This document shows, piece by piece, positions 13,240 to 62,800 of a DNA stretch of 64,000 nucleotides. Source of the DNA: a virus. The notes under the pieces are model-generated. The model searched no databases and was not told the DNA's origin. It worked only from the letters and a program-made list of their open reading frames with translations. The stretch lies in IMG/VR virus record IMGVR_UViG_3300021091_005330, positions 13,652-77,651 of that record, one strand, 5' to 3'. Position 1 is the first letter of the stretch, and each line of letters starts with the position of its first letter. A program made the position numbers and the translations under genes.

Positions 13240-13438
13240 CGTTTTTCCTTTTATCTATTTCTTCGCTAAAAATTTTTAAACCTTTAGTTAAAATTCTTAG
13301 AGAATCGTCATTTTTAAGATTATAAAAAACATCTGCCTTGCCTTGTTTTTTTCCTTTTTGGATAGCTATCAATAGATATTCTGCTCCAGCTTTATCAAGA
13401 ATATCGATAGAATCATATATGTCGTCCAAAGAGGCCAT
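13223..13438 (-). CDS. hypothetical protein within the polymerase cluster
   Basis: 71-aa ORF packed between the exonuclease gene and dnaE. Confidence 0.65.
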   Translation of the reverse strand: MASLDDIYDSIDILDKAGAEYLLIAIQKGKKQGKADVFYNLKNDDSLRILTKGLKIFSEEIDKRKNDGEFS

Positions 13439-13439
13439 A

Positions 13440-14078: not shown

Positions 14079-14079
14079 T

Positions 14080-14841
14080 TTAGCCTCTTTCTTTCTCTTT
14101 CCAACTTTCGAAAGAAAAGTCGTTACTAGTCATATGTTCAATTTCTGGTTTATTTAAATTAGTTCTTGCATTGATGCATCTAAAAGTCAAGTAAGCTTTA
14201 AAATCTGTTTTTAGTTTATAATAAATACTTTTTACATTAATAATTTGATTTTTATTTTTCGAACAATAATCTATTACTTTTGATTTTATTAAGTTATCGA
14301 ATGGAATATTATTATTTTCAATAAAAAATATAGGGGAGCAGAAGTCTATCTGTGGGGTACAAAGAGTATTTTTTAATACATTATTAAATATGAATGAATC
14401 GTAAAAGGGGACAGAGAGTAATAAATCATTATTATCCCATATAGATTTTAACGTTTTAAAATCTGTTCTTGGTTCATAATAGAAACCATTTTTTGCTGCT
14501 ATACTAAATATTTTAATAAGTCTTTTGTAGCCTTCATTATTTTTAAAAAAAATTACGAACTTAGAATTTTTTACTCTACTCTCTTCGCTTTTGTCCTCTA
14601 GATTATCTGTTACAGTTAATCTTAACCCGTATCTTAAATTAATATTATTTTTCTTGCAATTTGTATAGGCTTGTAAAAAGGATGTCATATTATCTTCTAC
14701 TAGATAAAGATTCTTTAAATTATTTTCTTTTATAATATTAATAATTGAATTGGGATAAAATTCTTCTTGGGCCTCATCTTCAAGAGTCAATATAGATCTA
14801 CCTATGCTATAGTGAGATTTAAATAAAGGTAATGCATCCAT
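14080..14841 (-). CDS. stand-alone PHP domain of DNA polymerase III alpha
   Basis: SHYSIG.S.L, YGLRL, KNNEGYKRL.KI.S.A...GFYY.PR.D match the DnaE N-terminal PHP domain. Confidence 0.85.
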   Translation of the reverse strand: MDALPLFKSHYSIGRSILTLEDEAQEEFYPNSIINIIKENNLKNLYLVEDNMTSFLQAYTNCKKNNINLRYGLRLTVTDNLEDKSEESRVKNSKFVIFFKNNEGYKRLIKIFSIAAKNGFYYEPRTDFKTLKSIWDNNDLLLSVPFYDSFIFNNVLKNTLCTPQIDFCSPIFFIENNNIPFDNLIKSKVIDYCSKNKNQIINVKSIYYKLKTDFKAYLTFRCINARTNLNKPEIEHMTSNDFSFESWKEKERG

Positions 14842-16730: not shown

Positions 16731-17374
16731 TCTAATGCCTCAGAGATTATTGGAAATTTTTCTATAAAGATATTTTTACATTCGTCTGCTATAATTCTAT
16801 GTTCTTTTTGAGTGTTCTGTTCTGCTCTTAATTCTATATAATGAACCCAAGATCTCAAATTACCTTTCATATACATCGTAGTTTGAGTAGTTAAGGGAAG
16901 GATCATTCTTGCTACTTCTTTTGCTATTCCGTTCTCTATCATTGTATTATAACAATGATCACTTAAGGATAAAACTTCTGCCACCAAATGATTTAAAGAG
17001 TCATGAGCTGGGTTATTTTTTGGCAATAAATTCTCGCCGACTTGTCTATTTTTATCTCCTTGTAATCTTAATTCTATATCTTCATATTCTGTAGCAGTAC
17101 TATACCTTAAACTAAATTCTTGAAATGAAAAAGATTTATGTCTTAAAATTTGAGCAGCAATAGCTCTACTAGTTTTTATTTCTAAAGTCATATCTACCAT
17201 TTCTAATGGTGACCAATGTTTATGTTTTATTAAAAATTTTAATAATTTAGGCGCAGTTTCTGTATTTATTTGATTCGACGGGTTACTGACTCTAGCGCAA
17301 TAAGCGACTAAATCTTCTGAGTTGATAATCCCTTCAACACTGGGTTGAGTTACAGAAATAAATTTTACATTCAC
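16715..17374 (-). CDS. thyX: FAD-dependent thymidylate synthase
   Basis: HWSPLE, QILRHKSFSFQEFSLRY, E.ARMILP, TQKEHR; GTG start. Confidence 0.95.
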   Translation of the reverse strand: MNVKFISVTQPSVEGIINSEDLVAYCARVSNPSNQINTETAPKLLKFLIKHKHWSPLEMVDMTLEIKTSRAIAAQILRHKSFSFQEFSLRYSTATEYEDIELRLQGDKNRQVGENLLPKNNPAHDSLNHLVAEVLSLSDHCYNTMIENGIAKEVARMILPLTTQTTMYMKGNLRSWVHYIELRAEQNTQKEHRIIADECKNIFIEKFPIISEALEWKKI

Positions 17375-18855
17375 AAAATTTCTCCATCATTTTGGTTTCT
17401 ATCATTTAATTCATACTGCTCTCTTTGCCTTTGAGCGATTGTTAATAACGAACCTCTTTCTTCTATTTTAAAATTATGTACATTATAATTTAAATAATTT
17501 TGAGCCCAAATTTGTTTGCCACTAGCGTCCAGTCTTCTAACCAAATCTTGGTGTCCGGCTGCTTCTTTTCCTTGAAATCTTGTTTTTGTTGGTATTAGTT
17601 TATGAGTGCCAAAGTCTTGACCATCTAGAGCCAGTTCGTCTAATGTCTTTCTCCTAAAGATGGCTACAAAAGAAGCAAACCACTGAAGTCTATCTGACAA
17701 AGCTATGACAGAACTATCGTCCACTACATTGGCAGCGGTTCTATTAAAATTCTCTCCAGTTCTATTTAATTGCATCGCTGTTACAATTGGACATTGTATT
17801 TCTTCTGATATTCTTTTTAACTTATCTATTTTTTGTCCTATCGCTTGATGTTCCGCCCAATTTTGACCAACTTTTTCGCCAGTAAGCTTAACGTAATCAT
17901 AAGCGATCAGAGCTTGATTTCCTCGTCCGACTTTAGAAAGATACCACCTTCTAATAATAGAACAGATCTGATCTATGTTTTTGCTACCGACATGATAATG
18001 ATAATATTCATGATTTTTAATGACAGCCCAAGCAGCTCTAACTTTTGATGTCATTTCCTCGTTCTTTCTCCAATTTCCTGTTTCCAAATACCACATTGGA
18101 ACATCAGTCATAGAAGATATCATCCTTAATTGAATGTCTAGAGTTTGCATCTCTGTATCTAGAACTAGTGTTTTAGTTTTATTTCTTGGAATTTTACTGG
18201 TATTAAAACATATATCATTTATCCAAGTAGATTTTCCTTGACCAGGTCTACTAACAATTGCATAAATATTGCCATTTTTTAATCCTCCATACAGCCTATT
18301 AAATTCTTGATATGGAGTTATTAATCCAACTTCTTCTCTTGGAGAATTTCCAATTTCTTCGATGATATCTTCTACGTTTTCAAAAAGATTTACTGGCTCT
18401 TCATTTGATTCATAAGAAGATATTTTATCGTTGTAAATCGCATCAGCCTCAGATATAATTTTATCTATTGGTTCTTCTCCACTTTCGGCAACATATTTTT
18501 TTAATTTTTCTGCTGTTTCCGCTATCTCTCTTCTTATTCTTAATTTCATTAGCTCTTTACAGGCATTCATTGTGGCTTCTTCTGTTATTTGAGAAAAACT
18601 TAAATTATCTATATAGTCATATATATTAATATCATCTTTAAAAGAAATGCCTAAATTTTTGATTTTTTCTGCTAGTAAAACTTTATCTACTTTTTCTCCT
18701 TTATATTTAGTGTTTTTGTATACAGCATATATAGTAGAATGAACATCATGATAAAAATCATCTTCTGATAGGAAGATGTCTACATCTGTGAATAAATGTT
18801 GATATTTTATTAGCCCGCTTAATACGTGGCGCTCAATCTGAAGAGAATAAATCAT
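17371..18855 (-). CDS. dnaB: replicative DNA helicase
   Basis: Walker A SRPGQGKST, DTEM, YDYVKL, MQLNR, KTRF. Confidence 0.9.
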   Translation of the reverse strand: MIYSLQIERHVLSGLIKYQHLFTDVDIFLSEDDFYHDVHSTIYAVYKNTKYKGEKVDKVLLAEKIKNLGISFKDDINIYDYIDNLSFSQITEEATMNACKELMKLRIRREIAETAEKLKKYVAESGEEPIDKIISEADAIYNDKISSYESNEEPVNLFENVEDIIEEIGNSPREEVGLITPYQEFNRLYGGLKNGNIYAIVSRPGQGKSTWINDICFNTSKIPRNKTKTLVLDTEMQTLDIQLRMISSMTDVPMWYLETGNWRKNEEMTSKVRAAWAVIKNHEYYHYHVGSKNIDQICSIIRRWYLSKVGRGNQALIAYDYVKLTGEKVGQNWAEHQAIGQKIDKLKRISEEIQCPIVTAMQLNRTGENFNRTAANVVDDSSVIALSDRLQWFASFVAIFRRKTLDELALDGQDFGTHKLIPTKTRFQGKEAAGHQDLVRRLDASGKQIWAQNYLNYNVHNFKIEERGSLLTIAQRQREQYELNDRNQNDGEIL

Positions 18856-21229: not shown

Positions 21230-21625
21230 ATGATAGAAAACTATGGCTCGATTTATTATAATAAAGATAAGATCGAGATCCATAACCCTTGGGAGTTAGC
21301 GCAACTTCAAAAGGAATATCCTATCTTTAAAGATCAAGAAATCTTAAATTTAATTGAATTAATAAATAATCCTGTGGTGGCCTGTAAAGATTTAAGAGAA
21401 AATGAATATGTTGATCTCTCTAAAGAAATAAATAAAAAATATAAGTCCGTATTTACTAATACATTTGATTTTATATCAGCAATAAACTGGTCCGCTGTTC
21501 CTAATGAATGGGCAGCAAAAAAAATTATAATTTTGTGTGATTCTTTAATTTTAAAATCTGTAAGCGTATCGCCCGTCTTCTCAAGATTGCCACCATTTTT
21601 CTCCGTCACTGGGGAATATATTTAA
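21230..21625 (+). CDS. hypothetical protein
   Basis: GTGTAA at 21216-21221, 8 nt before ATG; overlaps the convergent gene by 45 nt. Confidence 0.55.
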   Translation: MIENYGSIYYNKDKIEIHNPWELAQLQKEYPIFKDQEILNLIELINNPVVACKDLRENEYVDLSKEINKKYKSVFTNTFDFISAINWSAVPNEWAAKKIIILCDSLILKSVSVSPVFSRLPPFFSVTGEYI

Positions 21626-22492
21626 GTCCCTTAGTAATGTTTTTGTGTCATATGCTGGGCCAAAAACTATCGACCAAGATCTTTCGCATAAATATCCATA
21701 CACCCAGTGTTTTAAATTTAAATCTTTTATTTTTTTATAGCTCTCTATAGAGTTTTGTAAAATTCTATCTTTTTTAACACCGAAGCATGCGCCAATGCAC
21801 ATAAAATATATTGATGGAAATTTTCTTTGATTAAATTTTGGAGTTATCTCGCATTTATTTAAAAAATTTTCAATTATATTGATATTAGCATCTTTCTTGA
21901 GCGTATGACACAAACTATCTATACTTGTAAATTTTTCATTTGGAAATCCAAGTTCTTTTAAAACTTCTAAATATAAATTCATATCATATGGAAAAAAATA
22001 ATCTGCCGCTAATAAATACTTTAAATTATAAAGATGCCCTGAGCATCTGTATTCTTTTAAATGCTTATTTTTTATGTGCTCTGCCTCTAAAACTTTTTTT
22101 GGAGGAACTTCGTGTTCATCTGAATATCGGTCAGTCAAACACTGAAAACTTTCATAATCTTCATAATTTTTTAATAATTTCGAAAAATCAGGAGAGTGCT
22201 TATGAGGTTCAGCCTGAGTAAATATTGTTAAATCTGCTAAATTATCATAGTTTTTTATTATGTGGTGTAAGTATGTATCGCTTTCTCTGCCTTCGTTGGG
22301 TAATTTTAATATTTTAGATTTTGGATTTTTTTGTAATGTTGTTAAAAAATAAGATAAAGACATAGTCGGTTCTAAATTGGATTCATCTAATTTCTGATAA
22401 AAATATACATTAAAATTATTTGGTATATCATTTAAAATCCAATTAATTTCAGATTCATTATAATAAGATATAACTATGTCTATTTTATTCAT
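21581..22492 (-). CDS. DUF3431-like putative glycosyltransferase
   Basis: IVISYYNE...W, LPNEGRES.TYLHHI..NYD.LAD.TIF.Q..P..H, GACF.V, ERSW..VF. Confidence 0.75.
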   Translation of the reverse strand: MNKIDIVISYYNESEINWILNDIPNNFNVYFYQKLDESNLEPTMSLSYFLTTLQKNPKSKILKLPNEGRESDTYLHHIIKNYDNLADLTIFTQAEPHKHSPDFSKLLKNYEDYESFQCLTDRYSDEHEVPPKKVLEAEHIKNKHLKEYRCSGHLYNLKYLLAADYFFPYDMNLYLEVLKELGFPNEKFTSIDSLCHTLKKDANINIIENFLNKCEITPKFNQRKFPSIYFMCIGACFGVKKDRILQNSIESYKKIKDLNLKHWVYGYLCERSWSIVFGPAYDTKTLLRDLNIFPSDGEKWWQS

Positions 22493-23576
22493 TTATTTTA
22501 TTAAATTTATTTATAGCAGATCCAATAATTTGATGCATATCATAATACTTATATTCTGCTAATCTCCCTCCAAAGATTACCTTTGTTTCTTTTACACTCA
22601 AATCTTTATATTTTTTATAAACTTCATTATTCATGTCATTATTAACTGGGTAGTATGGAGTTTTGTCTTTATTCCATTCGTCTGGATATTCTTTAGTTAC
22701 ATATGTGTATTCTTGGTCTTTAAATTCGAAATGTTTATGTTCTATTATCCTTGTGTAAGGTATATTATAATCCGTATAGTTTATAACCGCATTTCCTTGG
22801 TAATCCTTAATTAAATATTTTTTCGTTTCAAATCTCAAGCTTCTGTATTCTAGTTGTCCGTATTCATAATTAAAAAATTCATCTATTTTACCAGTATAAA
22901 CTATACATTTAGCTTTTTTATCCCAATAATCTTTTCTGTCAAAATAATTTTCATTCAAGATGATATCCGCACCATCTACCATATTTTCTATCATTTTTGT
23001 ATAACCCCCAATTGGAATTCCTTGATATTTATCAAAAAAATAATTATCATCAAAATTTAATCTAATTGGTAGTCTTTTTATAATAAAAGATGGAAGCTCT
23101 TTGGGCTCTTTTCCCCATTGTTTTTTAGTATAACCATATATAAAGGTATGATAAATTTCTTCCCCAACTTGACTTAATATCCATTCTTCTAGATTCTTTG
23201 GTTCTTTGATTTTAAGTTTAACTTCTTTTAGTTTATTTTTCGCTTCTTCTGGCGTATTAACTCCCCAAAGCTGGTATAATGTGAAAAGATTGATAGGAAA
23301 AGAAAACAATTTATTCTTAAAATTAACTTTTGGTCTATTAATATAATTATTAAATTTTGTAAATTTATTTATATAATCCCAAATTTCATCATTATTTGTA
23401 TGAAATATATGAGGGCCATACTTGTGGATATTAATTCCTTCAATATTTTCTGTATAGCAATTTCCTCCTATATGATTTCTTGAGTCTATGATTAAACATT
23501 TTTTACCGTTTTCTTTGGCTTTATTCGCAAATGTAGCTCCAAAAAGACCACAACCAACAATTAGAAAATCATACAT
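22485..23576 (-). CDS. glf: UDP-galactopyranose mutase
   Basis: IVGCGLFG, HIGGNCY, HKYGPHIFHT, YTKKQW, YQGIP, TRIIEHKHF, PYYP, GRLAEYKYYDM. Confidence 0.97.
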   Translation of the reverse strand: MYDFLIVGCGLFGATFANKAKENGKKCLIIDSRNHIGGNCYTENIEGINIHKYGPHIFHTNNDEIWDYINKFTKFNNYINRPKVNFKNKLFSFPINLFTLYQLWGVNTPEEAKNKLKEVKLKIKEPKNLEEWILSQVGEEIYHTFIYGYTKKQWGKEPKELPSFIIKRLPIRLNFDDNYFFDKYQGIPIGGYTKMIENMVDGADIILNENYFDRKDYWDKKAKCIVYTGKIDEFFNYEYGQLEYRSLRFETKKYLIKDYQGNAVINYTDYNIPYTRIIEHKHFEFKDQEYTYVTKEYPDEWNKDKTPYYPVNNDMNNEVYKKYKDLSVKETKVIFGGRLAEYKYYDMHQIIGSAINKFNKINE

Positions 23577-23578
23577 AA

Positions 23579-24202
23579 TTATTCTGTGTTAAATATTTTA
23601 GCCCAAGATCTTTCATAAAAATGTCCAATTTCGGGATCTAATTCGTTTAGTTCTGGATCATTTAATAAACTCTCATAAAACTTTAAGGGTCTAGTATGAA
23701 TATATTCTCTAGAAATAGCAAAAATAGCCTTTTGATACCACTTAAACTTTCCTTCATCATCAGAGATTTCAAAATGTTTTTTCCATTCGTATAAGGTATG
23801 TCTTGATTTCGAAACAGGTTTGTTTCCGTGATTGTTGATTTTAAAATTTTTATAACCGCCAAATGGTTCAACCCATTCTGGATAAAAATTTTTGTTTAAA
23901 GAATAGCCATAAATTTGTGCTTCAATATATAGCTTGTGTAAATAGCTCTCTGAAAAGCCGTGGTCATTAATTGATCCTTGAGAAAATATATTTATTTCAT
24001 TTAAATTATTGTATTTATTTACAATATGATATATATACGTATGAGATTCTCGACCAACATTTTCTAATTTAGTAATATTAAAAGTTCCATTTAAGTCTTC
24101 TTCTCCTTTATTATATACAAAAATATTATCGTATTCAGATGTTACCCATGATAAATCTTCTTTATATCTTGCGACTATTAAATCTGCTTTATGAAATTTC
24201 AT
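23579..24202 (-). CDS. DUF3431-like putative glycosyltransferase
   Basis: IVARYKEDLSW, NVGRESHTY..HIV, GHFYERSW..IF. Confidence 0.75.
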   Translation of the reverse strand: MKFHKADLIVARYKEDLSWVTSEYDNIFVYNKGEEDLNGTFNITKLENVGRESHTYIYHIVNKYNNLNEINIFSQGSINDHGFSESYLHKLYIEAQIYGYSLNKNFYPEWVEPFGGYKNFKINNHGNKPVSKSRHTLYEWKKHFEISDDEGKFKWYQKAIFAISREYIHTRPLKFYESLLNDPELNELDPEIGHFYERSWAKIFNTE

Positions 24203-25262
24203 TATTTTCTATATCATTTTTCACCATTCTTTTCACTAAATCATCAAAAGAATTTTTTGGATTCCATTTTAATTCATTTCTAGCTATAGAAGAATCTCCT
24301 AACAAAAGACTGACTTCAGCTGGTCTATAAAATTGTTTATTTATTTTAACCAAAGTCAATGGCATATATCTTGGTGTGGAATTAATTGCAGTTTTATATT
24401 CTAGATTTTCTGGAATTTCTTCATTAGAAGAATATGACCAATGAGCTAAAACCCCTGCTGATTTAAAAGCTTTTTCTACGAACTCTTTAATAGTATGAGT
24501 TTCGCCAGAAGAAAGTATATATTCTTTGGGCTCATTTTGATTTAACATCAGCCAGATGCCTTCAATAAAATCTTCTGCATGACTCCAATCTCTTTTAGCT
24601 TCTAAATTGCCAAGTTCAATTGGCAAAAAATTTTCATTCTTTTTTAAGCTATGAAATATTCTTGCTACTCCTTTTGTAATTTTTCTGCTTACGAATTCTT
24701 CTCCTCTTCTTTCGCTTTCGTGATTATAAAGTATTGAGTGAATAGCATATAAATTATAAGATTCCCTATATACCTTTGTTATATGTCTAGCAGAAGCTTT
24801 TGCTGCTCCATAAGGGCTTCTAGGTCTAATTGGATGATTTAAATCTTGAGGACTATACAAAACATCTCCCATTTCTTCGCTAGAACCAGCAGAATAAAAT
24901 CTACAATTCGGCGCATATTTTCTTATTGCTTCTAAGCACCTTAGAACTCCTAAAGCTACAGTATCAAATGTTTGTATAGGCAGTTGCCAACTACTACCTA
25001 CAAAAGATTGAGCCGCAAAATTAATAAAATAGTCTGGCTTAACATCTTTTACTATTTCGTCTATAGAATTGCTATCAGATAGGTCAGCTATAATAATTTT
25101 TAGTCTAGGGTTATTAATATTATGTTTTATATTTTTTAAATTTGGATTAGAGCTTCTTCTTCTTATGCCATAAATTTCATAATCAGTATTATTTAATATA
25201 AAATCAACCATATAAGAGCCATCTTGTCCCGTGACTCCTGTGACTATAACTTTTTTGCTCAT
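24189..25262 (-). CDS. gmd: GDP-mannose 4,6-dehydratase
   Basis: TGVTGQDGSY, AAQSFV..S, PRSPYGAAK, NHESERRG..FV.RKI, LGNL.AKRDW, FYRPAEV. Confidence 0.96.
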   Translation of the reverse strand: MSKKVIVTGVTGQDGSYMVDFILNNTDYEIYGIRRRSSNPNLKNIKHNINNPRLKIIIADLSDSNSIDEIVKDVKPDYFINFAAQSFVGSSWQLPIQTFDTVALGVLRCLEAIRKYAPNCRFYSAGSSEEMGDVLYSPQDLNHPIRPRSPYGAAKASARHITKVYRESYNLYAIHSILYNHESERRGEEFVSRKITKGVARIFHSLKKNENFLPIELGNLEAKRDWSHAEDFIEGIWLMLNQNEPKEYILSSGETHTIKEFVEKAFKSAGVLAHWSYSSNEEIPENLEYKTAINSTPRYMPLTLVKINKQFYRPAEVSLLLGDSSIARNELKWNPKNSFDDLVKRMVKNDIENNEIS

Positions 25263-25897
25263 ACTTTTATAATATCTTTAAGTTGTTCTAATTTAGATTT
25301 TTCATTTCCAGTATTATTTTCGGTAAGTCCTAAGGCATGATAAATAAAGCTTCCATGATCATTAAAAGAGTGAGACGGAAAAGTAGAAGTTTTTTCAGCA
25401 AATTTTTTATAATTTTCTCTAAGCATGGCTTGAAAAATTGGTTGATCGTCTATTGAGCCATCGTTTATTTCACAAGCTTCTATTGAGGAATTAATTATAT
25501 CCAACATATATTCAGAACTTTTAATAAAAAATACTCCAAAATTAAAATTCCAATATCTATCTTGTGGCTTTTGATTAACGTAACATACTATAAATTCAGC
25601 ATTTTTGTCGGACATCTCTATAAAATTTTTTAAATTGATGTCATGATTTAATATTACAGCATCCGCATCTAAATAAAAAATCCAGTCATATTTTTCATTT
25701 TCTATTATTGATTTTAATATAAATGGTTTATTCCAGTATGCTCTTCTTTCATTAGTTATGCTTTTAGGAACAAAATCTCCAATATAGTCTTGATAATCTA
25801 AATTGTATTTTTTGCAATACTCTATATTCTTTGGTTTAGTTAAATTGAGCGCGTTCATAAACCTGTCATCGGAATGTTGTATGACTTTAATACGCAT
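25259..25897 (-). CDS. GT34 (GMA12/MNN10-like) glycosyltransferase
   Basis: YC.KY, WNKP, YDWIFYLDADA, NFGVFFIK, DDQ. Confidence 0.75.
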   Translation of the reverse strand: MRIKVIQHSDDRFMNALNLTKPKNIEYCKKYNLDYQDYIGDFVPKSITNERRAYWNKPFILKSIIENEKYDWIFYLDADAVILNHDINLKNFIEMSDKNAEFIVCYVNQKPQDRYWNFNFGVFFIKSSEYMLDIINSSIEACEINDGSIDDQPIFQAMLRENYKKFAEKTSTFPSHSFNDHGSFIYHALGLTENNTGNEKSKLEQLKDIIKV

Positions 25898-25903
25898 ATT
25901 AAA

Positions 25904-25969
25904 ATTATAAAATAAAAATATTTTTAAGTCAAAATAATTTTTGACAAAATTATAAATACTTTATAATAT
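25904..25969. promoter_or_regulatory. back-to-back divergent sigma70-like promoters
   Basis: Minus: TTGACT(25932-27)-N17-TATAAT-N6-ATG(25897). Plus: TTGACA(25941-46)-N17-TAATAT(25964-69). The -35 boxes form an imperfect palindrome. Confidence 0.7.
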
Positions 25970-25975
25970 AAATCA

Positions 25976-26265
25976 TACATACCGCTCAATTAGCGGATAA
26001 GGTTTGTCGTACTCCGTGAAACGATAAGTCTTATTAGTTCGCGCGTGGGCAACGCTATCGGAGCTTGCGACCCAGAAAACCACTAGTAATAATGGGTGTG
26101 TAGGTGTAAGGGCTAACACGAGAATGACAGTCCTACCGGTGTCTGATAAGTGTTAGGAGCCGAAAGGCTTATGGACTCAATTGGGAAGTTGAACTAATAG
26201 ACTTTTATAGCCCTTTTACAGGGAAAGCTCCGCTTTGGGGAGCTCATTGGGAAGTTAAATAATTA
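25976..26265 (+). ncRNA. candidate structured non-coding RNA or long cis-regulatory leader of nrdA
   Basis: GC-rich non-coding island directly after a promoter; multiple helices, GNRA tetraloop, two possible pseudoknots (see findings). Confidence 0.65.
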
Positions 26266-26383
26266 AACGTAACGATACACTTGATTATGTCTTTTTATTA
26301 AATGTTAATAACAAATTAAAATTTTCTTTTTAAAAAAGTAAAACTACTGTAACATAAATATATCTGTTGGAGAAAGTTATTTA

Positions 26384-28645
26384 ATGAATAAAAGTTTTAA
26401 TGTAAAAAAAAGAAATGGGGCAACTGAAAAATTTGATATAGAAAAAATACATAAAGTAATTAACTGGGCGATAGAAGATTTATCTAATGTTAGCTTAACG
26501 GATATAGAAATAAATGCTAAAATTAATTTGCACGACGGAGTTTCAACAAAAGAAATACATAAACTTTTAATTGAATCTGCTGCCAATTTAATTTCTGTAC
26601 AAAAACCTAATTATCAATATGTCGCTGGTAGGCTTTTGAATTATCAACTTAGAAAAGATGTATGGAAAGGAAAGCATGCTCCAAGATTACTAGAATTCCT
26701 TAATCAAGGACTAAAAAATAAAATTTATGATCCTATCATATTAGGAAAATATACAGAAGATGAAATTAACAAAATGGGTGAATTTGTGGACCATGAAAAA
26801 GATTATGATTTTACATACGCTGGTATAAAACAATTGTGTGACAAATATTTAATAAAAGATCGGGTTACGCATAAGATATACGAAACTCCTCAATTTGCTT
26901 ATGTATTAATATCTGCTTATGCTTTTATTAACTATCCAAAAGAAACTAGATTATCATATGTTAGAAAATTTTATGAGGCTATAAGCAAACATAAGATTAA
27001 TCTTCCTACGCCAGTTATGGCTGGAGTAAGAACTCCTAGTAAGAATTATGCTAGTTGTTGCTTAATTGGTGTTGACGATACTCGCGAAAGCATAACAGCA
27101 AGTGCTACTGCAGTTAGTATGGCTACAGCTAACAGATGTGGCATTGGAATAGATGTTAGCAAAATTAGAGCTCTTGGCTCTCCAATTAAAAACGGAGAAG
27201 TAGTGCATACAGGTTTGATTCCTTTTTTAAAAATCTATGAAAGTAGTGTTAAAGCTTGGCAGCAAAATGGGTTAAGAGGAGGAAGCGCCACTTGTAATAT
27301 TCAATGGTGGCATTATGAAATAGAAGACATTGTTGTATTAAAAAATAATGCTGGTACAGATGATAATCGTGTTAGAAAATTAGATTATACAGTTGGAATG
27401 AGTAAACTTTTTTACGATAGAGTATTAAAAGATGAAGACATTATTCTATTTAATACTGTTGAAGTTCCAGAACTTTATGAAGCTTGGGGCACGAAAGACT
27501 TTGATAAAATATATAAAGAATGCGAATCTAAAAAATTAAAAATAAAAAAGAAAATTTCTGCTAGAAGATTATTTTCTTTAATAATTAAAGAAAGAGTTGA
27601 GACTGGAAGAATTTATATTCTTAACGTAGATCACGCTAATAATCATGGGGCTTGGTTAGACAAAGTAACAATGAGTAATTTATGTACCGAAGTTATACAT
27701 CCAACTATTCCTTTAAACGATTATAATGATAAAGACGGAGAAATTGGAATGTGCATTCTTTCAGCAGTCAATATGCTTGAAATTAAAAATTGGCAAGATT
27801 TAGAAAAAACTTGTGATCTTATCGTTAGGTTTCTTGACGAAATTATCGAGCTTCAAGATTATTTTAATATTGCTGCAGAAAATTTTGCAAAAAAACGTCG
27901 TAGTCTTGGAATAGGCATAACAAATCTTGCTGCTTATTTCGCTAAAAATGAATTAAAATATACTTCTGATAAAACGTTATCAACTTTAGACGAATGGATG
28001 GAGCACTTTCAATATTATCTTTTAAAATCTAGTTTAGAATTAGCCAAAGAAAAAGGTAAATGCGAAAAATTTGATAGAACAAAATACGCTAAAGGTATAC
28101 TTCCTATTGATACATACAAAGATAAAGTAGATGAAATTTGTAAAAGGAAACTTTGTTTAGATTGGGAATCTCTTAGGAAAGAAATAAAAGAACATGGTTT
28201 AAGACATTCTACATTATCTTCATGTATGCCTTGTGAAAGTAGTTCTGTTATTCAATCTTCTACTAATGGAGTAGAGCCAATAAGAAGCTTAATAACGTAT
28301 AAAATGAGTAAAATGGGTAAGCTACCAGTATTAGTTCCAGGGGTTGGTAAATATGATGATAATTATGAATTAGCCTATGATTTTAAAGATAATACTGGAA
28401 TATTAAAAGTTAATGCTATTATTCAAAAATATATTGACATGGCTATTTCAACTAATGTATACTATAATTATTCACATTATGAAAACAATATTCTTCCAGA
28501 TTCAAAAGTTATGAAAGAAATTATGTATGCTTATAGTTTAGGCTTAATTAGCTTATATTACAATAATAGCGATGATGGAGATAAAGAACAGCTAATGAAC
28601 CAAAAAGAAGATAGAGATTGCTCCTCTGGAGCATGTAAACTATAA
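26384..28645 (+). CDS. nrdA: class Ia ribonucleotide reductase alpha subunit with ATP cone
   Basis: VKKRNG..E.FD..KI, ETPQ, PTPVM, ASCC, SNLCTE, C-terminal CSSGACKL. Confidence 0.97.
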   Translation: MNKSFNVKKRNGATEKFDIEKIHKVINWAIEDLSNVSLTDIEINAKINLHDGVSTKEIHKLLIESAANLISVQKPNYQYVAGRLLNYQLRKDVWKGKHAPRLLEFLNQGLKNKIYDPIILGKYTEDEINKMGEFVDHEKDYDFTYAGIKQLCDKYLIKDRVTHKIYETPQFAYVLISAYAFINYPKETRLSYVRKFYEAISKHKINLPTPVMAGVRTPSKNYASCCLIGVDDTRESITASATAVSMATANRCGIGIDVSKIRALGSPIKNGEVVHTGLIPFLKIYESSVKAWQQNGLRGGSATCNIQWWHYEIEDIVVLKNNAGTDDNRVRKLDYTVGMSKLFYDRVLKDEDIILFNTVEVPELYEAWGTKDFDKIYKECESKKLKIKKKISARRLFSLIIKERVETGRIYILNVDHANNHGAWLDKVTMSNLCTEVIHPTIPLNDYNDKDGEIGMCILSAVNMLEIKNWQDLEKTCDLIVRFLDEIIELQDYFNIAAENFAKKRRSLGIGITNLAAYFAKNELKYTSDKTLSTLDEWMEHFQYYLLKSSLELAKEKGKCEKFDRTKYAKGILPIDTYKDKVDEICKRKLCLDWESLRKEIKEHGLRHSTLSSCMPCESSSVIQSSTNGVEPIRSLITYKMSKMGKLPVLVPGVGKYDDNYELAYDFKDNTGILKVNAIIQKYIDMAISTNVYYNYSHYENNILPDSKVMKEIMYAYSLGLISLYYNNSDDGDKEQLMNQKEDRDCSSGACKL

Positions 28646-29182
28646 ATGTATTTTTCTCAGATAGGACAGGATAGGCTTGTGGATAATTTTTTAGATTTTA
28701 AAACTAATGGATATTTTTTAGATATAGGAGCTCATCATTACAGACACATAAGTAATACTTACTTTTTTGAAAAGGTAAGAAATTGGCGAGGAATCGCAGT
28801 AGAGCTAGATCAATCATTTCAAAACGAATGGATCTCTAATAGACCTAATTCTATTTTTATTAATCAAAACGCTTTAGATATTAACTATAGAGATTTATTA
28901 TTAAAATATGATTTTTCATTAAAAATAGATTTTCTTTCTTTAGATTTAGAGCCACCAGAAGTAACTCTTGAGGCTTTATACAAAATATTTCAAAGTGATA
29001 TTACTTTTAACACTATAGCTTTTGAAGTAGATGATTATAGACAAAAGAATACTAAGAATAAATCTCGGGAATTTTTATCATCTAAAGGTTACCATTTTGT
29101 AGCAGAACTTTATGATAGAAATAATTCTGGTATGATACATGTAGACGATTTTTGGGTACATAAGTCTATTCTAAAAAATTAG
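28646..29182 (+). CDS. FkbM-family methyltransferase
   Basis: SQIGQD, GYFLDIGA....SNT..FE...W.GI.VE, IDFLSLDLE. Confidence 0.8.
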   Translation: MYFSQIGQDRLVDNFLDFKTNGYFLDIGAHHYRHISNTYFFEKVRNWRGIAVELDQSFQNEWISNRPNSIFINQNALDINYRDLLLKYDFSLKIDFLSLDLEPPEVTLEALYKIFQSDITFNTIAFEVDDYRQKNTKNKSREFLSSKGYHFVAELYDRNNSGMIHVDDFWVHKSILKN

Positions 29183-29196: not shown

Positions 29197-30261
29197 ATGA
29201 AATCAGTTTTAAATTTAAAAAATATAGACCATACTAAACAACCATTATTTTTTGGAGAAGATCTCAATCTACAAAGATATGATCGATTTAAATATCCTAT
29301 ATTTTTTGAGTTATTTAAAAAACAAGAAGAATTTTTTTGGTGGCCCCACGAAGTATCCTTAAACAAAGACAGAAGTGATTATAAAGAACTAGCTGGTCAA
29401 GAAAGATTTGTTTTTGATACTAATTTAAAATTTCAAACTCTTGGAGATAGTATGCTTTCTAGAAGCATTCATTCTCTTAAAGATTACGTAAGTAATCCAG
29501 AGCTTGAAATATGTATGAACACTTGGCAAAGATTTGAAGGAATTCATAGTTATTCTTATTCATATTTACTTAATAATGTGCACCCAGATGCTAGTAAATT
29601 TTTTGATAGCATTATGGAAGATAAAGAGATTACTTCTAGAGCAGAGTTAATAAAAAATAATTTTGATAAAATCCTTGGCTCAGATGAGAAAAAAGACTTA
29701 AAACAAAAAATATTTGATTGTGTTCTTTCCGTTAATGTAATGGAAGGGCTTGTGTTTTATGTATCTTTTGCTTGTTCTTTTTATTTTGGATATCGCGGCA
29801 AGATGGAAGGGAATGCCAAAATTATTAAATTTATTCAAAGAGATGAAGCCTTACATTTTGCGACTACTCAAAATATCATTAAGATATTAAAAGAAGAAGA
29901 TAAAGAAGGTTTTACTTCTATAGTAAAGAAAAGCGAAGATAAGATTTATGCATTTTATGAACAAGCTGCGAAGAATGAAATAGAGTGGGCGCAGTACCTC
30001 TTCAAGAATGGATCATTACTTGGATTAAATGCTGAAGTTTTAGGGGGATATGCAAAATGGTTATGCGACAACAGATTAAGATCTTTAGGATATAAAAAGA
30101 TTTTTAATCAAAAAGATAATCCTATAGCTGGTTGGATGGATAGCTATATGGATAGTAGTAAGGTACAAACTGCTCCACAAGAGACAGAGCTACAATCTTA
30201 TAAAATAGGAGCTAGAAAAACCGATATATCTGATAACGATTTTAATGATTTAAAATTATAA
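29197..30261 (+). CDS. nrdB: class Ia ribonucleotide reductase beta subunit
   Basis: FWWP.E, FQTLGDS, E.IHSYSY (radical Tyr), EGLVFY.SF, RDEALH, APQETE; GTGTAA 9 nt upstream. Confidence 0.96.
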   Translation: MKSVLNLKNIDHTKQPLFFGEDLNLQRYDRFKYPIFFELFKKQEEFFWWPHEVSLNKDRSDYKELAGQERFVFDTNLKFQTLGDSMLSRSIHSLKDYVSNPELEICMNTWQRFEGIHSYSYSYLLNNVHPDASKFFDSIMEDKEITSRAELIKNNFDKILGSDEKKDLKQKIFDCVLSVNVMEGLVFYVSFACSFYFGYRGKMEGNAKIIKFIQRDEALHFATTQNIIKILKEEDKEGFTSIVKKSEDKIYAFYEQAAKNEIEWAQYLFKNGSLLGLNAEVLGGYAKWLCDNRLRSLGYKKIFNQKDNPIAGWMDSYMDSSKVQTAPQETELQSYKIGARKTDISDNDFNDLKL

Positions 30262-36488: not shown

Positions 36489-37285
36489 AAATTTGTTATT
36501 GGACTATAGCTTACGGAGAATACGCTTATATGGCTCAAGCTCTTATCGATTCTTTTAATAGACACGAAATTCATGGAGACTTTCTTTGTTATTCAAATCT
36601 AGAACTTAAAAATTGCATCAATAAAAGCATAGATAAAGATATATCTTTAGACCTAAACTCTTATTTATTTAAATTTTTATATTTAAATAAATTAAAAGAT
36701 TTTGATTATGATTATTTTATTTTTTTAGATTGCGATTCTTTCTTTGTTAGAAAACCAGAGATTGGTATATCTTATATTATTGAAGATGGAGTTCCTTGGC
36801 ATTCTTTTTTAGAAAGTCCAATAAATTCGTATAAAACACTTAGAAGAGATTGGTGGGGCGTAGAAGTTAATGATCTTACTACATTTTATAGAGAACTAGG
36901 AGTTAATCACGAAGAAATAAGAAATACAAACGCTGGATTCTGGATCTGCAAAAAAGATTTTATAGACGAAGCAATAAACTTAGGAATGAAATGCTATAAT
37001 TATATTTCAAATAAAGGATATAAAATAACAGAAGAAATCCCTATGGCTTATATAGCTAATATAGTTAGCAAAAAAGTAGAGAAAAGATTTCATGATTATT
37101 ATTTTAATTATTGGGCTTCTGATTGGACGGGTGCATTTAGGAACATTATTCCATATAACAAAGCTTGGGAATATGAGTCTTATATGACTACTGAAAAATA
37201 TATTATACAACCAGCCTTAATCCACGCTATGAGAAGTAAAAGAGCTTTAATTGATCTTGGCAAAAATATCTTGACCCAATCATAA
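36485..37285 (+). CDS. GT-A fold nucleotide-diphospho-sugar transferase
   Basis: TIA.G.Y..MA.AL, FK, YDYFIFLDCD, NAGFW. Confidence 0.7.
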   Translation: MKICYWTIAYGEYAYMAQALIDSFNRHEIHGDFLCYSNLELKNCINKSIDKDISLDLNSYLFKFLYLNKLKDFDYDYFIFLDCDSFFVRKPEIGISYIIEDGVPWHSFLESPINSYKTLRRDWWGVEVNDLTTFYRELGVNHEEIRNTNAGFWICKKDFIDEAINLGMKCYNYISNKGYKITEEIPMAYIANIVSKKVEKRFHDYYFNYWASDWTGAFRNIIPYNKAWEYESYMTTEKYIIQPALIHAMRSKRALIDLGKNILTQS

Positions 37286-37299
37286 ATATAAAATAAAAT
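37271..37299 (+). promoter_or_regulatory. sigma70-like promoter, leaderless geometry
   Basis: TTGACC-N17-TAAAAT-N7-ATG(37307). Confidence 0.65.
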
Positions 37300-37306
37300 T
37301 GTTCTT

Positions 37307-38410
37307 ATGTTTAATTTTAAAGAATCAATAGGTTACGATGATATTTGTTTGTTACCAAACTTTTCAGATATTGTTTCCAGAAAAGAGGTTAATACGATAA
37401 CTAAAATAAGTAGGACAAAATATATAGATTATCCAATAATTATATCTCCTATGGATACTGTCTCTTCAGTTAAAGGCTGTATTAAAATAAATAAATTAGG
37501 TGGAGCAGGAGTTTTGCATAGATTTATGTCCGTAGAAGAGCAAGCAGCAAAAGCGAAAAGAATAAAAGATGAAAGCGGTTTTTGTATTACTGCAATAGGT
37601 TTAAAAGATTTTCACGAAAGGGTAGAAGCCACTAAAAATTATACAGATATTTATTTTCTAGACACAGCGAACGGTCTATCTAAAAATGTCGAAGACTTTT
37701 TAATTCAATTCAAAACTGCTAGTTATAATCAAGATATTATCGTTGGTAATACTCTCACTAAAGAAAGCGTCTATAGATTAGCTAATTTAAAAGCTGATGG
37801 CTTTAGGCATTTAATAGGCCCTGGGAGTATGTGTTTGACCCAAATGAAAACTGGAATAGGTTGTCCTAGCGTTACTGGATTGTATTATGCATGGAAAGCT
37901 GCAAGAAATTGGCAACTAGCTAATTTAGATTATTTTAGACACGAAAACATTAGCGATGATAATCGCCCTAGTATTTTAGCGGATGGTGGCATAAGATATC
38001 CAAAAGATCTTGTGAAAGCTATAGCTAGTGGAGCAGACGCTGTAATTTGTGGAAGAATTTTTGCTGGACTAAGTGATATAGTTGATGAAGAAAATATTGT
38101 AAAAAGGGGAGGAAAGTATTATGCTAAATATAGAGGAATGGCTAGCAAAGATGTTGTTGAAGATTATGATTTATCCGATGGCTCAAAACAAAATCTTTTT
38201 GTAGAAGGAGATACTACGCTAATTCCTTTGATCACCAACAAAACCTTAGAGGATGTAGTATTTGATTTCGTTAATGGTTTAAGAAGTGCCATGAGTTATC
38301 TTGGATTTAGAAATATTCAAGAGATGCGCGGTGGGTTATGGACAGAAAAAATTAGAGCCATAAGAGTAACACCTAACAGTCTGTACGAAGGTTTCTCTCA
38401 TGGTAAATAA
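37307..38410 (+). CDS. IMPDH/GMP reductase family enzyme, probably GMP reductase (no CBS domain)
   Basis: YDD..L.P, SPMDTV, GVLHRF, D.ANG, IGPGSMC.T, ADGGIR, YRGMAS...LFVEG; no Arg-Tyr flap dyad. Confidence 0.85.
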   Translation: MFNFKESIGYDDICLLPNFSDIVSRKEVNTITKISRTKYIDYPIIISPMDTVSSVKGCIKINKLGGAGVLHRFMSVEEQAAKAKRIKDESGFCITAIGLKDFHERVEATKNYTDIYFLDTANGLSKNVEDFLIQFKTASYNQDIIVGNTLTKESVYRLANLKADGFRHLIGPGSMCLTQMKTGIGCPSVTGLYYAWKAARNWQLANLDYFRHENISDDNRPSILADGGIRYPKDLVKAIASGADAVICGRIFAGLSDIVDEENIVKRGGKYYAKYRGMASKDVVEDYDLSDGSKQNLFVEGDTTLIPLITNKTLEDVVFDFVNGLRSAMSYLGFRNIQEMRGGLWTEKIRAIRVTPNSLYEGFSHGK

Positions 38411-43181: not shown

Positions 43182-43223
43182 ACGATTGTCTAATAAAAAT
43201 GCAGACAGGGGGATTCGTTTGCT

Positions 43224-58116: not shown

Positions 58117-58119
58117 TAT
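58091..58119 (+). promoter_or_regulatory. sigma70-like promoter, leaderless geometry
   Basis: TTGACA-N17-TAATAT-N7-ATG(58127). Confidence 0.7.
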
Positions 58120-58126
58120 ATAGTAT

Positions 58127-58990: not shown

Positions 58991-58996
58991 GAAATT

Positions 58997-60552: not shown

Positions 60553-60558
60553 CAGATT

Positions 60559-62793: not shown

Positions 62794-62800
62794 ACAAAAT

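What the first reader, a model, noticed from the sequence alone, without database searches (positions are those of the whole stretch)
25941..26383. Unrecognised ~290-nt pseudoknot-rich RNA with its own promoter, upstream of nrdA
Seen: a GC-rich non-coding island in an AT-rich genome starts at the predicted +1 (~25976) of TTGACA-N17-TAATAT. Thirteen other promoters of this type place a start codon at that position; this one does not. Helices read by eye: CCGCT/AGCGG (25982-96); a 14-bp stem 25997-26010/26021-34; a competing long-range helix AAGTCTTATTAGTTC (26026-40)/GAACTAATAGACTT (26191-204); GTAGG/CCTAC; AGCC-GAAA-GGCT (26158-69); AGCTCC/GGAGCT (26226-44). Two possible pseudoknots: loop CTCCG (26012-16) with CGGAG (26059-63), and loop AAGGGCTA (26108-15) with TAGCCCTT (26208-15). 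ATTGGGAAGTT is directly repeated (26180, 26246). I cannot match it to RNase P, 6S, SRP, group I/II intron or cobalamin-riboswitch signatures. Inference: a new phage ncRNA class, or a switch-like leader (partly exclusive helices) regulating ribonucleotide reductase.
Basis: partly seen in the sequence, partly recalled or inferred. Interest (0 to 1): 0.82.

Follow-up and report, generated by a model that had tools for sequence, protein, structure and literature searches.

The report
Twin-box knotted RNA of lake phages
The GC-rich gap before nrdA is a real stand-alone gene for a folded, doubly knotted RNA of about 280 bases that related uncultured lake phages keep in one copy; it does not control nrdA, matches no catalogued RNA family, and carries two 10-base boxes that drift in evolution yet always stay identical.

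Summary
Window 25976-26257 (+) is a promoter-driven, non-coding, structured RNA. It has no Rfam match at gathering score or at E<=10.

Homologues occur in 46 of 80 related nrdA loci. Seven of eight large relatives carry exactly one copy. On 43 sequences my structure pairs in 94.3% of cells against 73.1% in shuffles (0/500); it has 68 pairs, 51 of them with changes on both sides.

Supported: P1, a short P2, the long-range helix, GTAGG:CCTAC (a pseudoknot), and the GAAA hairpin. AGCTCC instead pairs with CGGAGCTT (26059-66) as a second pseudoknot.

It is not an nrdA leader. In two subfamilies the RNA lies downstream of nrdB on the opposite strand, and nrdA keeps its own upstream module without it.

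The direct repeat is the oddest part: a 10-nt core is identical in both boxes in 43/43 RNAs, in at least 8 versions, 65-75 nt apart. The only complement in the phage genomes is the gene's own template strand.

Best guess (unproven, about 0.3): an origin-proximal R-loop or primer RNA working like ColE1 RNA II. This scan has already found the same family on other DNA.

The parts
25941..25969 (+). Sigma-70-type promoter: TTGACA (25941-46), 17-nt spacer, TAATAT (25964-69). The predicted start is at 25976-77.
   Evidence: TTGACA-N17/18-TAnnAT is conserved upstream of every homologue in all subfamilies, followed by a conserved ACATAG-type start.
25976..26257 (+). Transcribed structured ncRNA of about 280 nt. 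Sequence conservation starts at ACATA and ends 1-2 nt after box 2.
   Evidence: Alignments A1-A3. CM R1 scores 339 bits here. G-U pairs fit only the + strand.
25982..25996 (+). P1 hairpin CCGC(T)/(A)GCGG.
   Evidence: helix 1: four pairs, all with changes on both sides (GC, CG, UA, AU).
26006..26025 (+). P2 hairpin GTCGT/ACGAT.
   Evidence: helix 2: 5 of 5 pairs have double changes and 100% of cells pair. The outer 9 bp are not supported (helix 1, 75.8%).
26026..26040 (+). P3 5' strand (AAGTCTTATTAGTTC). It pairs with 26191-26204 and closes a multi-helix junction holding P4-P7.
   Evidence: helix 3: 13 of 13 pairs have double changes and 97.6% of cells pair.
26047..26073 (+). P4: outer stem GGG/CCC, inner stem CGC/GCG, and an 11-nt loop (26056-66) that forms pseudoknot PK-B.
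   Evidence: helices 4 and 5: 100% paired, with double changes. Subfamilies C and D show inner stems CGTC/GACG that are separate from the loop.
26059..26066 (+). PK-B 5' strand CGGAGCTT, in the P4 loop. It pairs with 26225-26232.
   Evidence: Compensated variants: AAAGCTT:AAGCTTT, GAAGCTT:AAGCTTC, AAGGGCT:AGCCCTT (subfamily C), GAAGACTT:AAGTCTTC (D), and CGCAAGCTTT:AAAGCTTGCG (L012) (helices 6-7). PK-B was not part of the CM.
26080..26095 (+). P5 hairpin CCACTA/TAATGG. It has a C-A mismatch in this window and is expanded in subfamilies B-D.
   Evidence: helix 8: 5 of 6 pairs have double changes.
26100..26104 (+). PK-A 5' strand GTAGG. It pairs with CCTAC (26132-36) in the apical loop of P6.
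   Evidence: helix 9: 97.2% paired. Variants are GTAGC:GCTAC, GTGGC:GCCAC and GTGGA:TCCAC. PK-A was not part of the CM.
26113..26156 (+). P6: outer stem CTAACAC/GTGTTAG, inner stem (T)GACA/TGTC(T), loop carrying CCTAC, and a conserved GATAAG bulge.
   Evidence: helices 10 and 12: 5 of 6 and 4 of 5 pairs have double changes.
26158..26169 (+). P7 hairpin AGCC-GAAA-GGCT. It is replaced by longer hairpins in subfamilies B-D.
   Evidence: helix 13.
26175..26190 (+). Box 1 (ACTCAATTGGGAAGTT). It is single-stranded and lies between P7 and the P3 3' strand. The identical 10-nt core is 26180-26189.
   Evidence: No internal complement is shared across subfamilies.
26191..26204 (+). P3 3' strand GAACTAATAGACTT.
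   Evidence: helix 3.
26211..26223 (+). P8: a small hairpin of variable length, CCCT/AGGG.
   Evidence: helix 14, 85% paired. Its length varies among homologues.
26225..26232 (+). PK-B 3' strand AAGCTCCG, preceded by a conserved GGGAAAG-type purine run.
26241..26256 (+). Box 2 (AGCTCATTGGGAAGTT) at the 3' end of the conserved region. The identical 10-nt core is 26246-26255.
   Evidence: the core is identical to box 1 in 43 of 43 RNAs; spacing is 65-75 nt.
26258..26383 (+). Not part of the RNA. This is an AT-rich spacer plus nrdA's own upstream module: ATACAC (26275-80), palindrome TGTTAATAACA (26303-13), TTTTCTTTTT (26322-31), CTGTAACATA (26347-56) and RBS GGAGAAAG (26369-76).
   Evidence: The same elements stand upstream of nrdA in loci that have no RNA there. 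The 50 nt after box 2 average 19% GC.

Best explanation
Shown:
- 25976-26257 (+) is an independent gene for a structured RNA of about 280 nt, transcribed from its own strong sigma-70-type promoter.
- The fold has two 5' hairpins and a long-range helix (P3) that closes a junction of four helices.
- It has two pseudoknots: PK-A, from the strand before P6 to the P6 loop, and PK-B, from the P4 loop to the 3' tail.
- It has two single-stranded, purine-rich boxes whose 10-nt cores are always identical.
- It is single-copy in this phage group and is not a cis-regulator of nrdA.

Inferred mechanism (unproven): the RNA acts on its own gene's DNA as an origin-proximal R-loop or primer transcript.
- Identity between two boxes is needed only if something complementary to one box must pair with the other.
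- The only such complement found in these genomes is the template DNA strand of the RNA gene itself.
- I therefore propose that the folded core brings box 1, about 70 nt behind the polymerase, back to the transcription bubble.
- There box 1 pairs with the template strand of box 2 and anchors a persistent RNA-DNA hybrid at the edge of the AT-rich DNA that follows.
- The hybrid would either prime DNA synthesis or open the duplex for loading of the phage DnaB-type helicase.
- This is the logic described for ColE1 RNA II, where an rG stretch of the RNA pairs with a dC stretch of the template.
For: Evidence that it is a real RNA gene:
- Covariation: 94.3% of cells paired against 73.1% in shuffles; 51 of 68 pairs have double changes; 0 of 500 shuffles reach the observed values; slid controls score 0.05-0.10 against 0.564.
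- Both pseudoknots covary although they were not in the model that made the alignment.
- The promoter is conserved in all subfamilies.
- It has no Rfam match.

Evidence that it is not a leader.

Evidence on the twin boxes:
- The core is identical in 43 of 43 RNAs, in at least 8 versions. At least six different substitutions inside the closely related subfamily A are mirrored in both boxes.
- Spacing is held to 65-75 nt although P8 varies.
- The boxes are unpaired, and no internal complement is shared by the subfamilies.
- No other copy or complement exists in the window or in three 86-87% complete genomes.
- All box versions are purine-rich on the RNA side. From my own knowledge, this favours RNA:DNA hybrids.

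Evidence for an origin-like setting:
- There is one copy per genome in 7 of 8 large relatives.
- The RNA lies within 500 nt of the cumulative GC-skew minimum and major divergent strand switch in G000, G001, G003 and G006, and 5-8 kb from it in G002, G004 and G005.
- Conservation stops right after box 2. The next 50 nt average 19% GC against 30% for intergenic windows.
- The phage encodes a DnaE-type polymerase, a DnaB-like helicase and a ligase.

Precedent: the ColE1 rG:dC template pairing and the T4 oriF/oriG R-loop origins (PMC4412123).
Against: - No experiment or read data bears on this. Transcription, the RNA ends, an R-loop and origin activity are all untested.
- GC skew in these genomes follows gene orientation. 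The nrd operon keeps positive skew in G002 and G004, so the skew minimum is not independent evidence for an origin.
- In three genomes the RNA is 5-8 kb from the minimum, and in L011 it sits between two co-oriented genes.
- The seven genomes are related, so their shared position may be inherited synteny.
- A fold this elaborate, with many invariant junction nucleotides, is more than a primer is known to need. It would equally suit a ribozyme or a ribonucleoprotein.
- AT-rich DNA after box 2 is only modestly unusual: 17% of intergenic windows are as AT-rich.
- Some homologues have a terminator-like hairpin soon after box 2. That fits a discrete free RNA.
Confidence: 0.3

Rival explanations
1. 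A trans-acting ribonucleoprotein or decoy RNA. The knotted core is a stable scaffold that displays two identical single-stranded purine-rich boxes. These bind two copies, or a dimer, of one reader: a phage or host RNA-binding protein, a nuclease, or an Hfq-like or S1-like factor. The RNA would sequester or recruit that reader early in infection.
For: - The RNA has a strong early-type promoter, and some homologues have a terminator-like hairpin after box 2, as expected for a free RNA.
- The boxes are unpaired and exposed.
- In subfamilies B-D the box (CAAAAGAAAAGT) reads as A-R-N triplets, which from my own knowledge is the type of site bound by the Hfq distal face.
- The elaborate conserved core suits a ribonucleoprotein.
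Against: - A protein reader does not easily explain why single-base changes at six or more different box positions are mirrored in both boxes among phages whose RNAs are 85-97% identical.
- The subfamily A box (TTGGGAAGT) is not an A-R-N motif.
- No universally linked protein gene was found. The 69-aa neighbour exists only in subfamilies C and D.
Confidence: 0.25
2. A ribozyme, a self-processing RNA or a self-assembling 'ornate' RNA. The two boxes would be identical because they occupy equivalent sites: two cleavage or ligation sites, or a box-box contact that needs like-with-like pairing such as a parallel purine homoduplex.
For: - The RNA has two covarying pseudoknots, a multi-helix junction and many invariant junction nucleotides (GCAACG, GTAG, TAAGG, ATAAGTG, GGGAAAG), as catalytic or ligand-binding cores do.
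- Like-with-like pairing would directly demand identity.
- Phage-borne ornate RNAs such as ROOL and GOLLD form homo-oligomers (PMC12286853, seen).
Against: - There is no match to any ribozyme family in Rfam.
- No precedent known to me exists for a 10-nt mixed-sequence parallel homoduplex in a natural RNA.
- Nothing here tests cleavage or assembly.
Confidence: 0.12
3. The boxes act at the DNA level as iteron-like sites. Two direct repeats would be bound by a phage initiator or another DNA-binding protein and would co-evolve with it. The RNA would be an origin or regulatory transcript that happens to span them.
For: - From my own knowledge, iterons show exactly this pattern: identical within a replicon and drifting between replicons.
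- The element is single-copy and sits at or near the major strand switch.
Against: - There are only two copies, 65-75 bp apart, without helical phasing.
- The boxes sit in fixed positions of a covarying RNA fold, and one of them marks the exact 3' end of RNA-level conservation.
- No linked initiator gene was identified.
Confidence: 0.1
4. A cis-regulatory leader or riboswitch controlling nrdA.
For: The RNA lies about 126 nt upstream of nrdA on the same strand in this window and in subfamilies A and B. No strong terminator lies between them.
Against: - The RNA is convergent with nrdB in subfamilies C and D.
- It lies about 10 kb from nrdA in G003.
- It is followed by a different ORF in L011.
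- nrdA's upstream module is present without the RNA.
- The proposed alternative helices are not conserved.
Confidence: 0.03
5. A highly diverged member of a known housekeeping RNA family. RNase P RNA is the candidate, given the phage's tRNA and tmRNA genes and a GGGAAAG-plus-helix element that resembles CR-I/P4.
For: - GGGAAAG precedes the long-range PK-B helix. In subfamily D it reads GGGAAAGTC.
- In subfamilies C and D the RNA gene is divergent from the tmRNA gene.
Against: - No RNase P model matches, even at E<=10 on a 600-nt query or E<=5 on five loci.
- The 5' and 3' ends do not pair.
- The order of the strands is the reverse of P4/P2 in RNase P.
- The CR-I-like letters are not conserved in subfamilies A-C (my reading, compared with the consensus from memory).
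Confidence: 0.03

Closest known systems
ColE1 RNA II (plasmid replication primer) and the T4 oriF/oriG R-loop origins
   Same: - A promoter-driven, non-coding transcript present in one copy per replicon.
- Its fold matters.
- A purine-rich RNA stretch that matches a downstream template stretch (ColE1 rG:dC; PMC4412123).
- AT-rich DNA follows.
- It sits at or near the divergence of the two gene arms.
   Different: - There is no sequence or structural homology.
- RNA II is about 550 nt, has no comparable double pseudoknot, and is controlled by the antisense RNA I. No antisense partner is seen here.
- T4 origin transcripts are not known to need a fold.
- R-loop formation and origin activity are untested here.
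Large structured phage and bacterial RNAs of unknown function (ROOL RF03087, GOLLD RF01998, raiA, OLE)
   Same: They are stand-alone, strongly covarying, pseudoknotted ncRNAs, often phage-borne and often from lake metagenomes. None has an established function.
   Different: - There is no Rfam match to any of them.
- This RNA is much smaller (about 280-340 nt).
- None of those families is described, to my knowledge, with a co-varying pair of identical boxes.
Polynucleobacter-1 motif (RF01718) and the larger 'twin-box' RNAs noted earlier in this scan
   Same: According to unchecked earlier notes of this scan, larger RNAs of T4-like and jumbo lake or marine phages also carry one short word twice. 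Some of them begin with RF01718.
   Different: - RF01718 matches nothing in this region.
- It matches nothing in eight genomes of this phage group at E<=1.
- I could not fetch the sister RNAs, so homology with them is untested.
Retroviral R repeats and twin polypurine tracts; the DRT2 reverse-transcriptase ncRNA
   Same: Two identical stretches in one RNA, kept identical because a strand copied from one must re-pair with the other. The subfamily B-D box contains AAAAGAAAAG, a polypurine tract.
   Different: - I did not search the phage genomes for a reverse transcriptase; none turned up among the sixteen window ORFs scanned.
- The 65-75-nt unit between the boxes shows no multiple-of-3 bias and no conserved open concatemer frame.

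Membership tests
Any Rfam 15 family (RNase P, 6S, SRP, tmRNA, group I/II introns, cobalamin and other riboswitches, ROOL, GOLLD, raiA, HEARO and others) | A covariance-model match at or near the family's gathering score. | tested here: not met
   The window at gathering score gives only a tmRNA and a tRNA elsewhere. Region 25850-26450 at E<=10 gives only csRNA at E=4 and 20 bits, against a cut-off of 57. Five loci of subfamilies B-D at E<=5 give nothing at the RNA.
Cis-regulatory leader or riboswitch of nrdA | A constant position in the 5' UTR of the regulated gene, on the same strand. | tested here: not met
   In subfamilies C and D the RNA lies downstream of nrdB on the opposite strand. In G003 it is about 10 kb away. 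In L011 it lies upstream of another ORF.
Cis-regulatory leader or riboswitch of nrdA | Conserved mutually exclusive helices forming an expression platform. | tested here: not met
   The competing arms (outer 14-bp stem, AGCTCC/GGAGCT) are not maintained: 62.4% of cells pair against 60.9% in shuffles.
Group I intron | A P3-P7-P8 pseudoknot order, a G-binding P7 and flanking exons. | tested here: not met
   There is no Rfam intron match. PK-B joins the P4 loop to the 3' tail rather than a strand next to P3'. NrdA is full length from residue 1-7 without an upstream exon.
RNase P RNA | P1/P2 end pairing, a P4 pseudoknot with CR-I and CR-V, and a model match. | tested here: not met
   There is no model match. 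The ends are unpaired. The GGGAAAG-helix element is in reversed strand order and its letters are not conserved across subfamilies (the consensus is from memory).
Polynucleobacter-1 motif (RF01718) | A covariance-model match of at least 37 bits. | tested here: not met
   Zero matches at E<=1 in G000-G007, and none in the region.
R-loop or primer origin RNA (ColE1 RNA II-like; a functional class, not a homology family) | An upstream RNA stretch identical to a downstream transcribed stretch, so that it can pair with that stretch's template DNA. | tested here: met
   The 10-nt cores of box 1 and box 2 are identical in 43 of 43 RNAs. The template strand is the only complement in the genomes.
R-loop or primer origin RNA (ColE1 RNA II-like; a functional class, not a homology family) | A persistent RNA:DNA hybrid and initiation of DNA synthesis at the site. 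| not testable with these tools
   This needs DRIP or RNase H mapping and origin mapping in infected cells. No host is cultured and no sequencing run was listed.
R-loop or primer origin RNA (ColE1 RNA II-like; a functional class, not a homology family) | A single copy at the replicon's origin region. | tested here: inconclusive
   There is one copy in 7 of 8 genomes. The RNA is at the skew minimum in 4 of 7 genomes and 5-8 kb away in 3 of 7. However, skew tracks gene strand.
DRT2-like template RNA (rolling-circle reverse transcription) | A repeat-bounded template whose concatemer is an open reading frame, next to a reverse transcriptase. | tested here: not met
   The unit length modulo 3 is 0, 1 or 2 in 12, 12 and 19 RNAs. 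No shared open frame exists. No reverse transcriptase gene is adjacent.

The most novel reading that the evidence does not exclude
The identity rule itself may be the mechanism. The RNA would be a self-templating device in which a strand complementary to one box is transferred to the other. This could be RNA box 1 capturing the template DNA of box 2, or a nascent copy switching between boxes. It would make a new kind of phage replication or priming element built on a doubly pseudoknotted RNA. Together with the larger twin-box RNAs noted elsewhere in this scan, it could be a widespread, undescribed core function of aquatic phages.
Probability: 0.3. Interest if true: 0.9.

Novelty: new variant of a known kind. 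Interest (0 to 1): 0.68.

Why it matters
Phage non-coding RNAs with complex folds are rare, and almost none has a known job. This one is small enough to study. It is single-copy and conserved across a large group of uncultured lake phages.

It also carries an unusual evolutionary signature: two boxes that must stay identical rather than complementary. That signature sharply narrows the possible mechanisms to strand transfer, like-with-like contact or a shared reader.

The signature gives a clean experiment: change one box, change the other, then change both to a new shared sequence.

If the R-loop reading is right, it would be the first origin RNA of this architecture in a phage with a bacterial-type DnaE/DnaB replisome.

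Tried and rejected
- **Rfam.** Searches at gathering score and at E<=10 or E<=5 gave no family for the RNA.
- **Phage GenBank collection.** blastn of the region gave no match.
- **Bacterial genomes.** A pattern scan with a 17-base core motif gave only chance hits; nhmmer found no homologue among them. About 50 of the 82 viral pattern hits were also chance.
- **RNA sequencing runs.** No RNA holder was listed, so expression and RNA ends could not be examined.
- **RF01718 (Polynucleobacter-1).** No match in eight genomes.
- **Internal partner for the boxes.** Several short complements appear in single subfamilies: P1 loop CCCAATT with AATTGGG, the GTTTTG linker, and the P2 loop. None covaries with the box across subfamilies.
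- **External partner inside the phage.** There is no other copy or complement of the box.
- **TTTTCTTTT element upstream of nrdA.** It is complementary to the subfamily B-D box but does not covary with it. Subfamily A keeps the element with a different box, and subfamily D changes the element but keeps the box.
- **Box as a ribosome-binding-site mimic.** No Shine-Dalgarno-like or box-like word is enriched upstream of ORFs.
- **DRT2-like concatemer ORF.** Rejected.
- **RNase P-like reading of GGGAAAG plus helix.** Rejected on topology and on the lack of any model match.
- **A conserved protein partner next to the RNA.** The 69-aa neighbour is confined to subfamilies C and D, and the 343-aa neighbour of subfamily B is not linked elsewhere.
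- **Single-sequence folding energy.** It is not informative: z = -1.41 on the + strand and -2.63 on the - strand.
Full report
**What is in the sequence.**
Window 25950-26250 is a GC island of 0.40-0.49 in a 0.22-0.30 background. It lies between a divergent GT34-like gene (25259-25897, minus strand) and nrdA (26384-28645). nrdA was confirmed by its ATP-cone and two RNR large-subunit domains, and nrdB lies at 29197-30261. TTGACA (25941-46), N17, TAATAT (25964-69) stands just upstream. In this window ten promoters of the same type put an ATG 6-7 nt after the -10 hexamer, in front of ORFs of 70-739 aa. These are leaderless mRNAs. This promoter instead runs into ACATACC.

**Known families.**
Rfam 15 finds only a tmRNA and a tRNA elsewhere in the window. 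With permissive filters and E<=10, the 600-nt region gives only a meaningless csRNA hit at E=4. Five loci with divergent homologues also give nothing at the RNA. blastn against 50,697 phage records gives nothing.

**Homologues.**
- NrdA retrieves 80 related loci from IMG/VR.
- blastn and nhmmer find the RNA upstream of nrdA in 19 of them, at 75-97% identity.
- A covariance model built from 25 distinct sequences (R1) then finds full-length matches (31-64 bits, E 1e-7 to 1e-17) in 27 more loci.
- I call the groups A to D. A is this window's type. B and L012 are also upstream of nrdA. C and D lie downstream of nrdB on the opposite strand.
- The window has one copy.
- Seven of eight large relatives (70-87% complete) have exactly one copy, and one has none detectable.
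- A motif scan of bacterial genomes gave only chance hits.

**Structure.**
The structure was tested on the 43-sequence alignment A3.
- It has 68 pairs. 94.3% of cells form standard pairs against 73.1% in shuffles. 51 pairs have changes on both sides. The covariation score is 0.564 against 0.203. No shuffle of 500 reaches any observed value, and partners slid by 1-3 columns score 0.05-0.10.
- A3 was fitted to the nested helices, which favours them. However, an earlier MAFFT-only alignment already showed 28 of 61 predicted pairs with compensatory changes.
- The two pseudoknots were never in the model. PK-A (GTAGG 26100-04 with CCTAC 26132-36) also appears as GTAGC:GCTAC, GTGGC:GCCAC and GTGGA:TCCAC.
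- PK-B joins the P4 loop (CGGAGCTT, 26059-66) to AAGCTCCG (26225-32). It reappears as AAAGCTT:AAGCTTT, GAAGCTT:AAGCTTC, AAGGGCT:AGCCCTT, GAAGACTT:AAGTCTTC and CGCAAGCTTT:AAAGCTTGCG.
- Frequent G-U pairs fix the + strand as the RNA strand.

- The 3' arm of the AGCTCC/GGAGCT hairpin mutates without compensation.
- Only the inner 5-8 bp of the 14-bp stem survive.

**Not an nrdA leader.**
- In subfamilies C and D the RNA is convergent with the nrdA-nrdB operon and divergent from a small 69-aa gene and the tmRNA gene.
- In G003 it lies about 10 kb from nrdA.
- In L011 a 371-aa ORF follows it.
- nrdA carries the same proximal elements (TACAC, a TGTTAATAACA-type palindrome, TTTTCTTTT, CTGTAACATA) with or without the RNA upstream.
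- The last 126 nt of the reported span therefore belong to nrdA, not to the RNA.

**The twin boxes.**
- Box 1 (26175-90) lies between P7 and the 3' strand of P3.
- Box 2 (26241-56) ends the conserved region.
- Their 10-nt cores are identical in all 43 RNAs.
- The core itself exists in at least eight versions: ATTGGGAAGT, ACTGGGAAGT, ATTGGAAAGT, ATTGGGAAAT, ATTGGGAATT, ATTGGGAAAA, ATTGGGAAGA, AGGGAAAAAG and AAAGAAAAGT.
- Even the flanking TCA to TTA change of subfamily D occurs in both boxes.
- Spacing is 65-75 nt.
- No segment of the RNA is complementary to the boxes in a way that holds across subfamilies.
- No other copy or complement exists in the window or in three nearly complete genomes.
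- The unit between the boxes shows no multiple-of-3 bias and no shared open frame, which excludes a DRT2-like coding concatemer.

**Mechanism (inference).**
Identity, as opposed to complementarity, is required when something complementary to one box must pair with the other. The only complement present is the template DNA strand of the gene itself. This is the logic reported for ColE1 RNA II, where an rG stretch of the RNA must pair with a dC stretch of the template to give the persistent hybrid that primes replication. T4 oriF and oriG also use promoter-driven R-loops next to an unwinding element (PMC4412123).

Observations consistent with this:
- The boxes are purine-rich on the RNA side.
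- Conservation ends at box 2, and the next 50 nt average 19% GC against 30% for intergenic windows.
- The gene is single-copy.
- It lies within 500 nt of the cumulative GC-skew minimum and major divergent strand switch in four of seven genomes, and 5-8 kb from it in the other three.
- The phage has a DnaE-type polymerase, a DnaB-like helicase and a ligase.

Caveats:
- Skew here follows gene orientation.
- The genomes share ancestry.
- AT-richness is only moderately unusual.
- The richly conserved fold would equally fit a ribonucleoprotein or a ribozyme.
- Nothing is tested experimentally.

I put this reading at about 0.3. A twin-site ribonucleoprotein or decoy is at about 0.25. A ribozyme or self-assembling RNA is at about 0.12. 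DNA-level iterons are at about 0.1. A leader or a diverged known family are at about 0.03 each.

**Relation to earlier notes of this scan.**
The same family was reported from other genomes (e1-5809709, e1-5809721, e1-5530590). Those reports reached the same main conclusions and made the same ColE1 comparison. Larger 'twin-box' RNAs were reported many times, some linked to Polynucleobacter-1. I re-derived the structure, the contexts and the identity rule independently. I found no RF01718 match in this phage group. I could not test homology with the larger RNAs.

**Verdict.**
This is a real, uncatalogued, single-copy structured phage RNA. Its function remains open, and the identity rule of the two boxes offers a direct experimental handle.

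Noticed in passing
window, e.g. 6593-6556(-), 10661-10624(-), 14875-14839(-), 18891-18853(-), 25932-25895(-), 37271-37309(+), 58091-58129(+), 58962-58999(+), 60524-60561(+): Ten TTGACN-N16-18-TAnnnT promoters place an ATG 6-7 nt after the -10 hexamer, in front of ORFs of 70-739 aa. Many genes of this phage therefore look leaderless. No Shine-Dalgarno-like word is enriched upstream of ORFs.
   Followed up: partly
window 43223-43611 (-); also L285:2123-2510 and L287:823-1210: The phage encodes a one-piece tmRNA (96 bits). In the relatives its tag is unusually long at 24 residues (AKTAKYKGHISAR.SLVE.TASVA). In subfamilies C and D it lies about 300-800 nt from the twin-box RNA, transcribed divergently.
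   Followed up: partly
window 26275-26356, and upstream of nrdA in L002-L056: A conserved nrdA upstream module: TACAC, an 11-nt palindrome TGTTAATAACA, TTTTCTTTT, and CTGTAACATA about 27 nt before the ATG. It looks like a phage-specific promoter plus an operator for a dimeric regulator. It is present with or without the RNA.
   Followed up: partly
window 28646-29182 (+): A 178-aa ORF without a Pfam match is wedged between nrdA and nrdB. Relatives such as L027 and L051 have nrdA and nrdB directly adjacent, so this looks like an insertion.
   Followed up: no
window 10666-14841 (-): The DnaE-type DNA polymerase is split into separate genes: a 253-aa N-terminal piece, a 212-aa exonuclease subunit and an 857-aa catalytic piece. 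rIIA and rIIB (60559-63727), a DnaB-like helicase (17371-18855) and an ATP-dependent ligase (58997-60109) are also present.
   Followed up: partly
L027:7074-7274 (+), L287:1243-1449 (-), L285 (G002:96921-97127): A conserved 66-71-aa protein (MEIIKNKARW...KFNFVYKKDCQKLL) is encoded divergently, about 50 nt from the RNA start, in subfamilies C and D only. No homologue was found in the window or in G001.
   Followed up: partly
window 21581-25897 (-): The operon divergent from the RNA encodes a GT34-like glycosyltransferase, a GDP-mannose 4,6-dehydratase and DUF3431 proteins. The genes flanking the RNA on this side differ between subfamily A members, and several of these neighbours are annotated or look like glycosyltransferases.
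   Followed up: no
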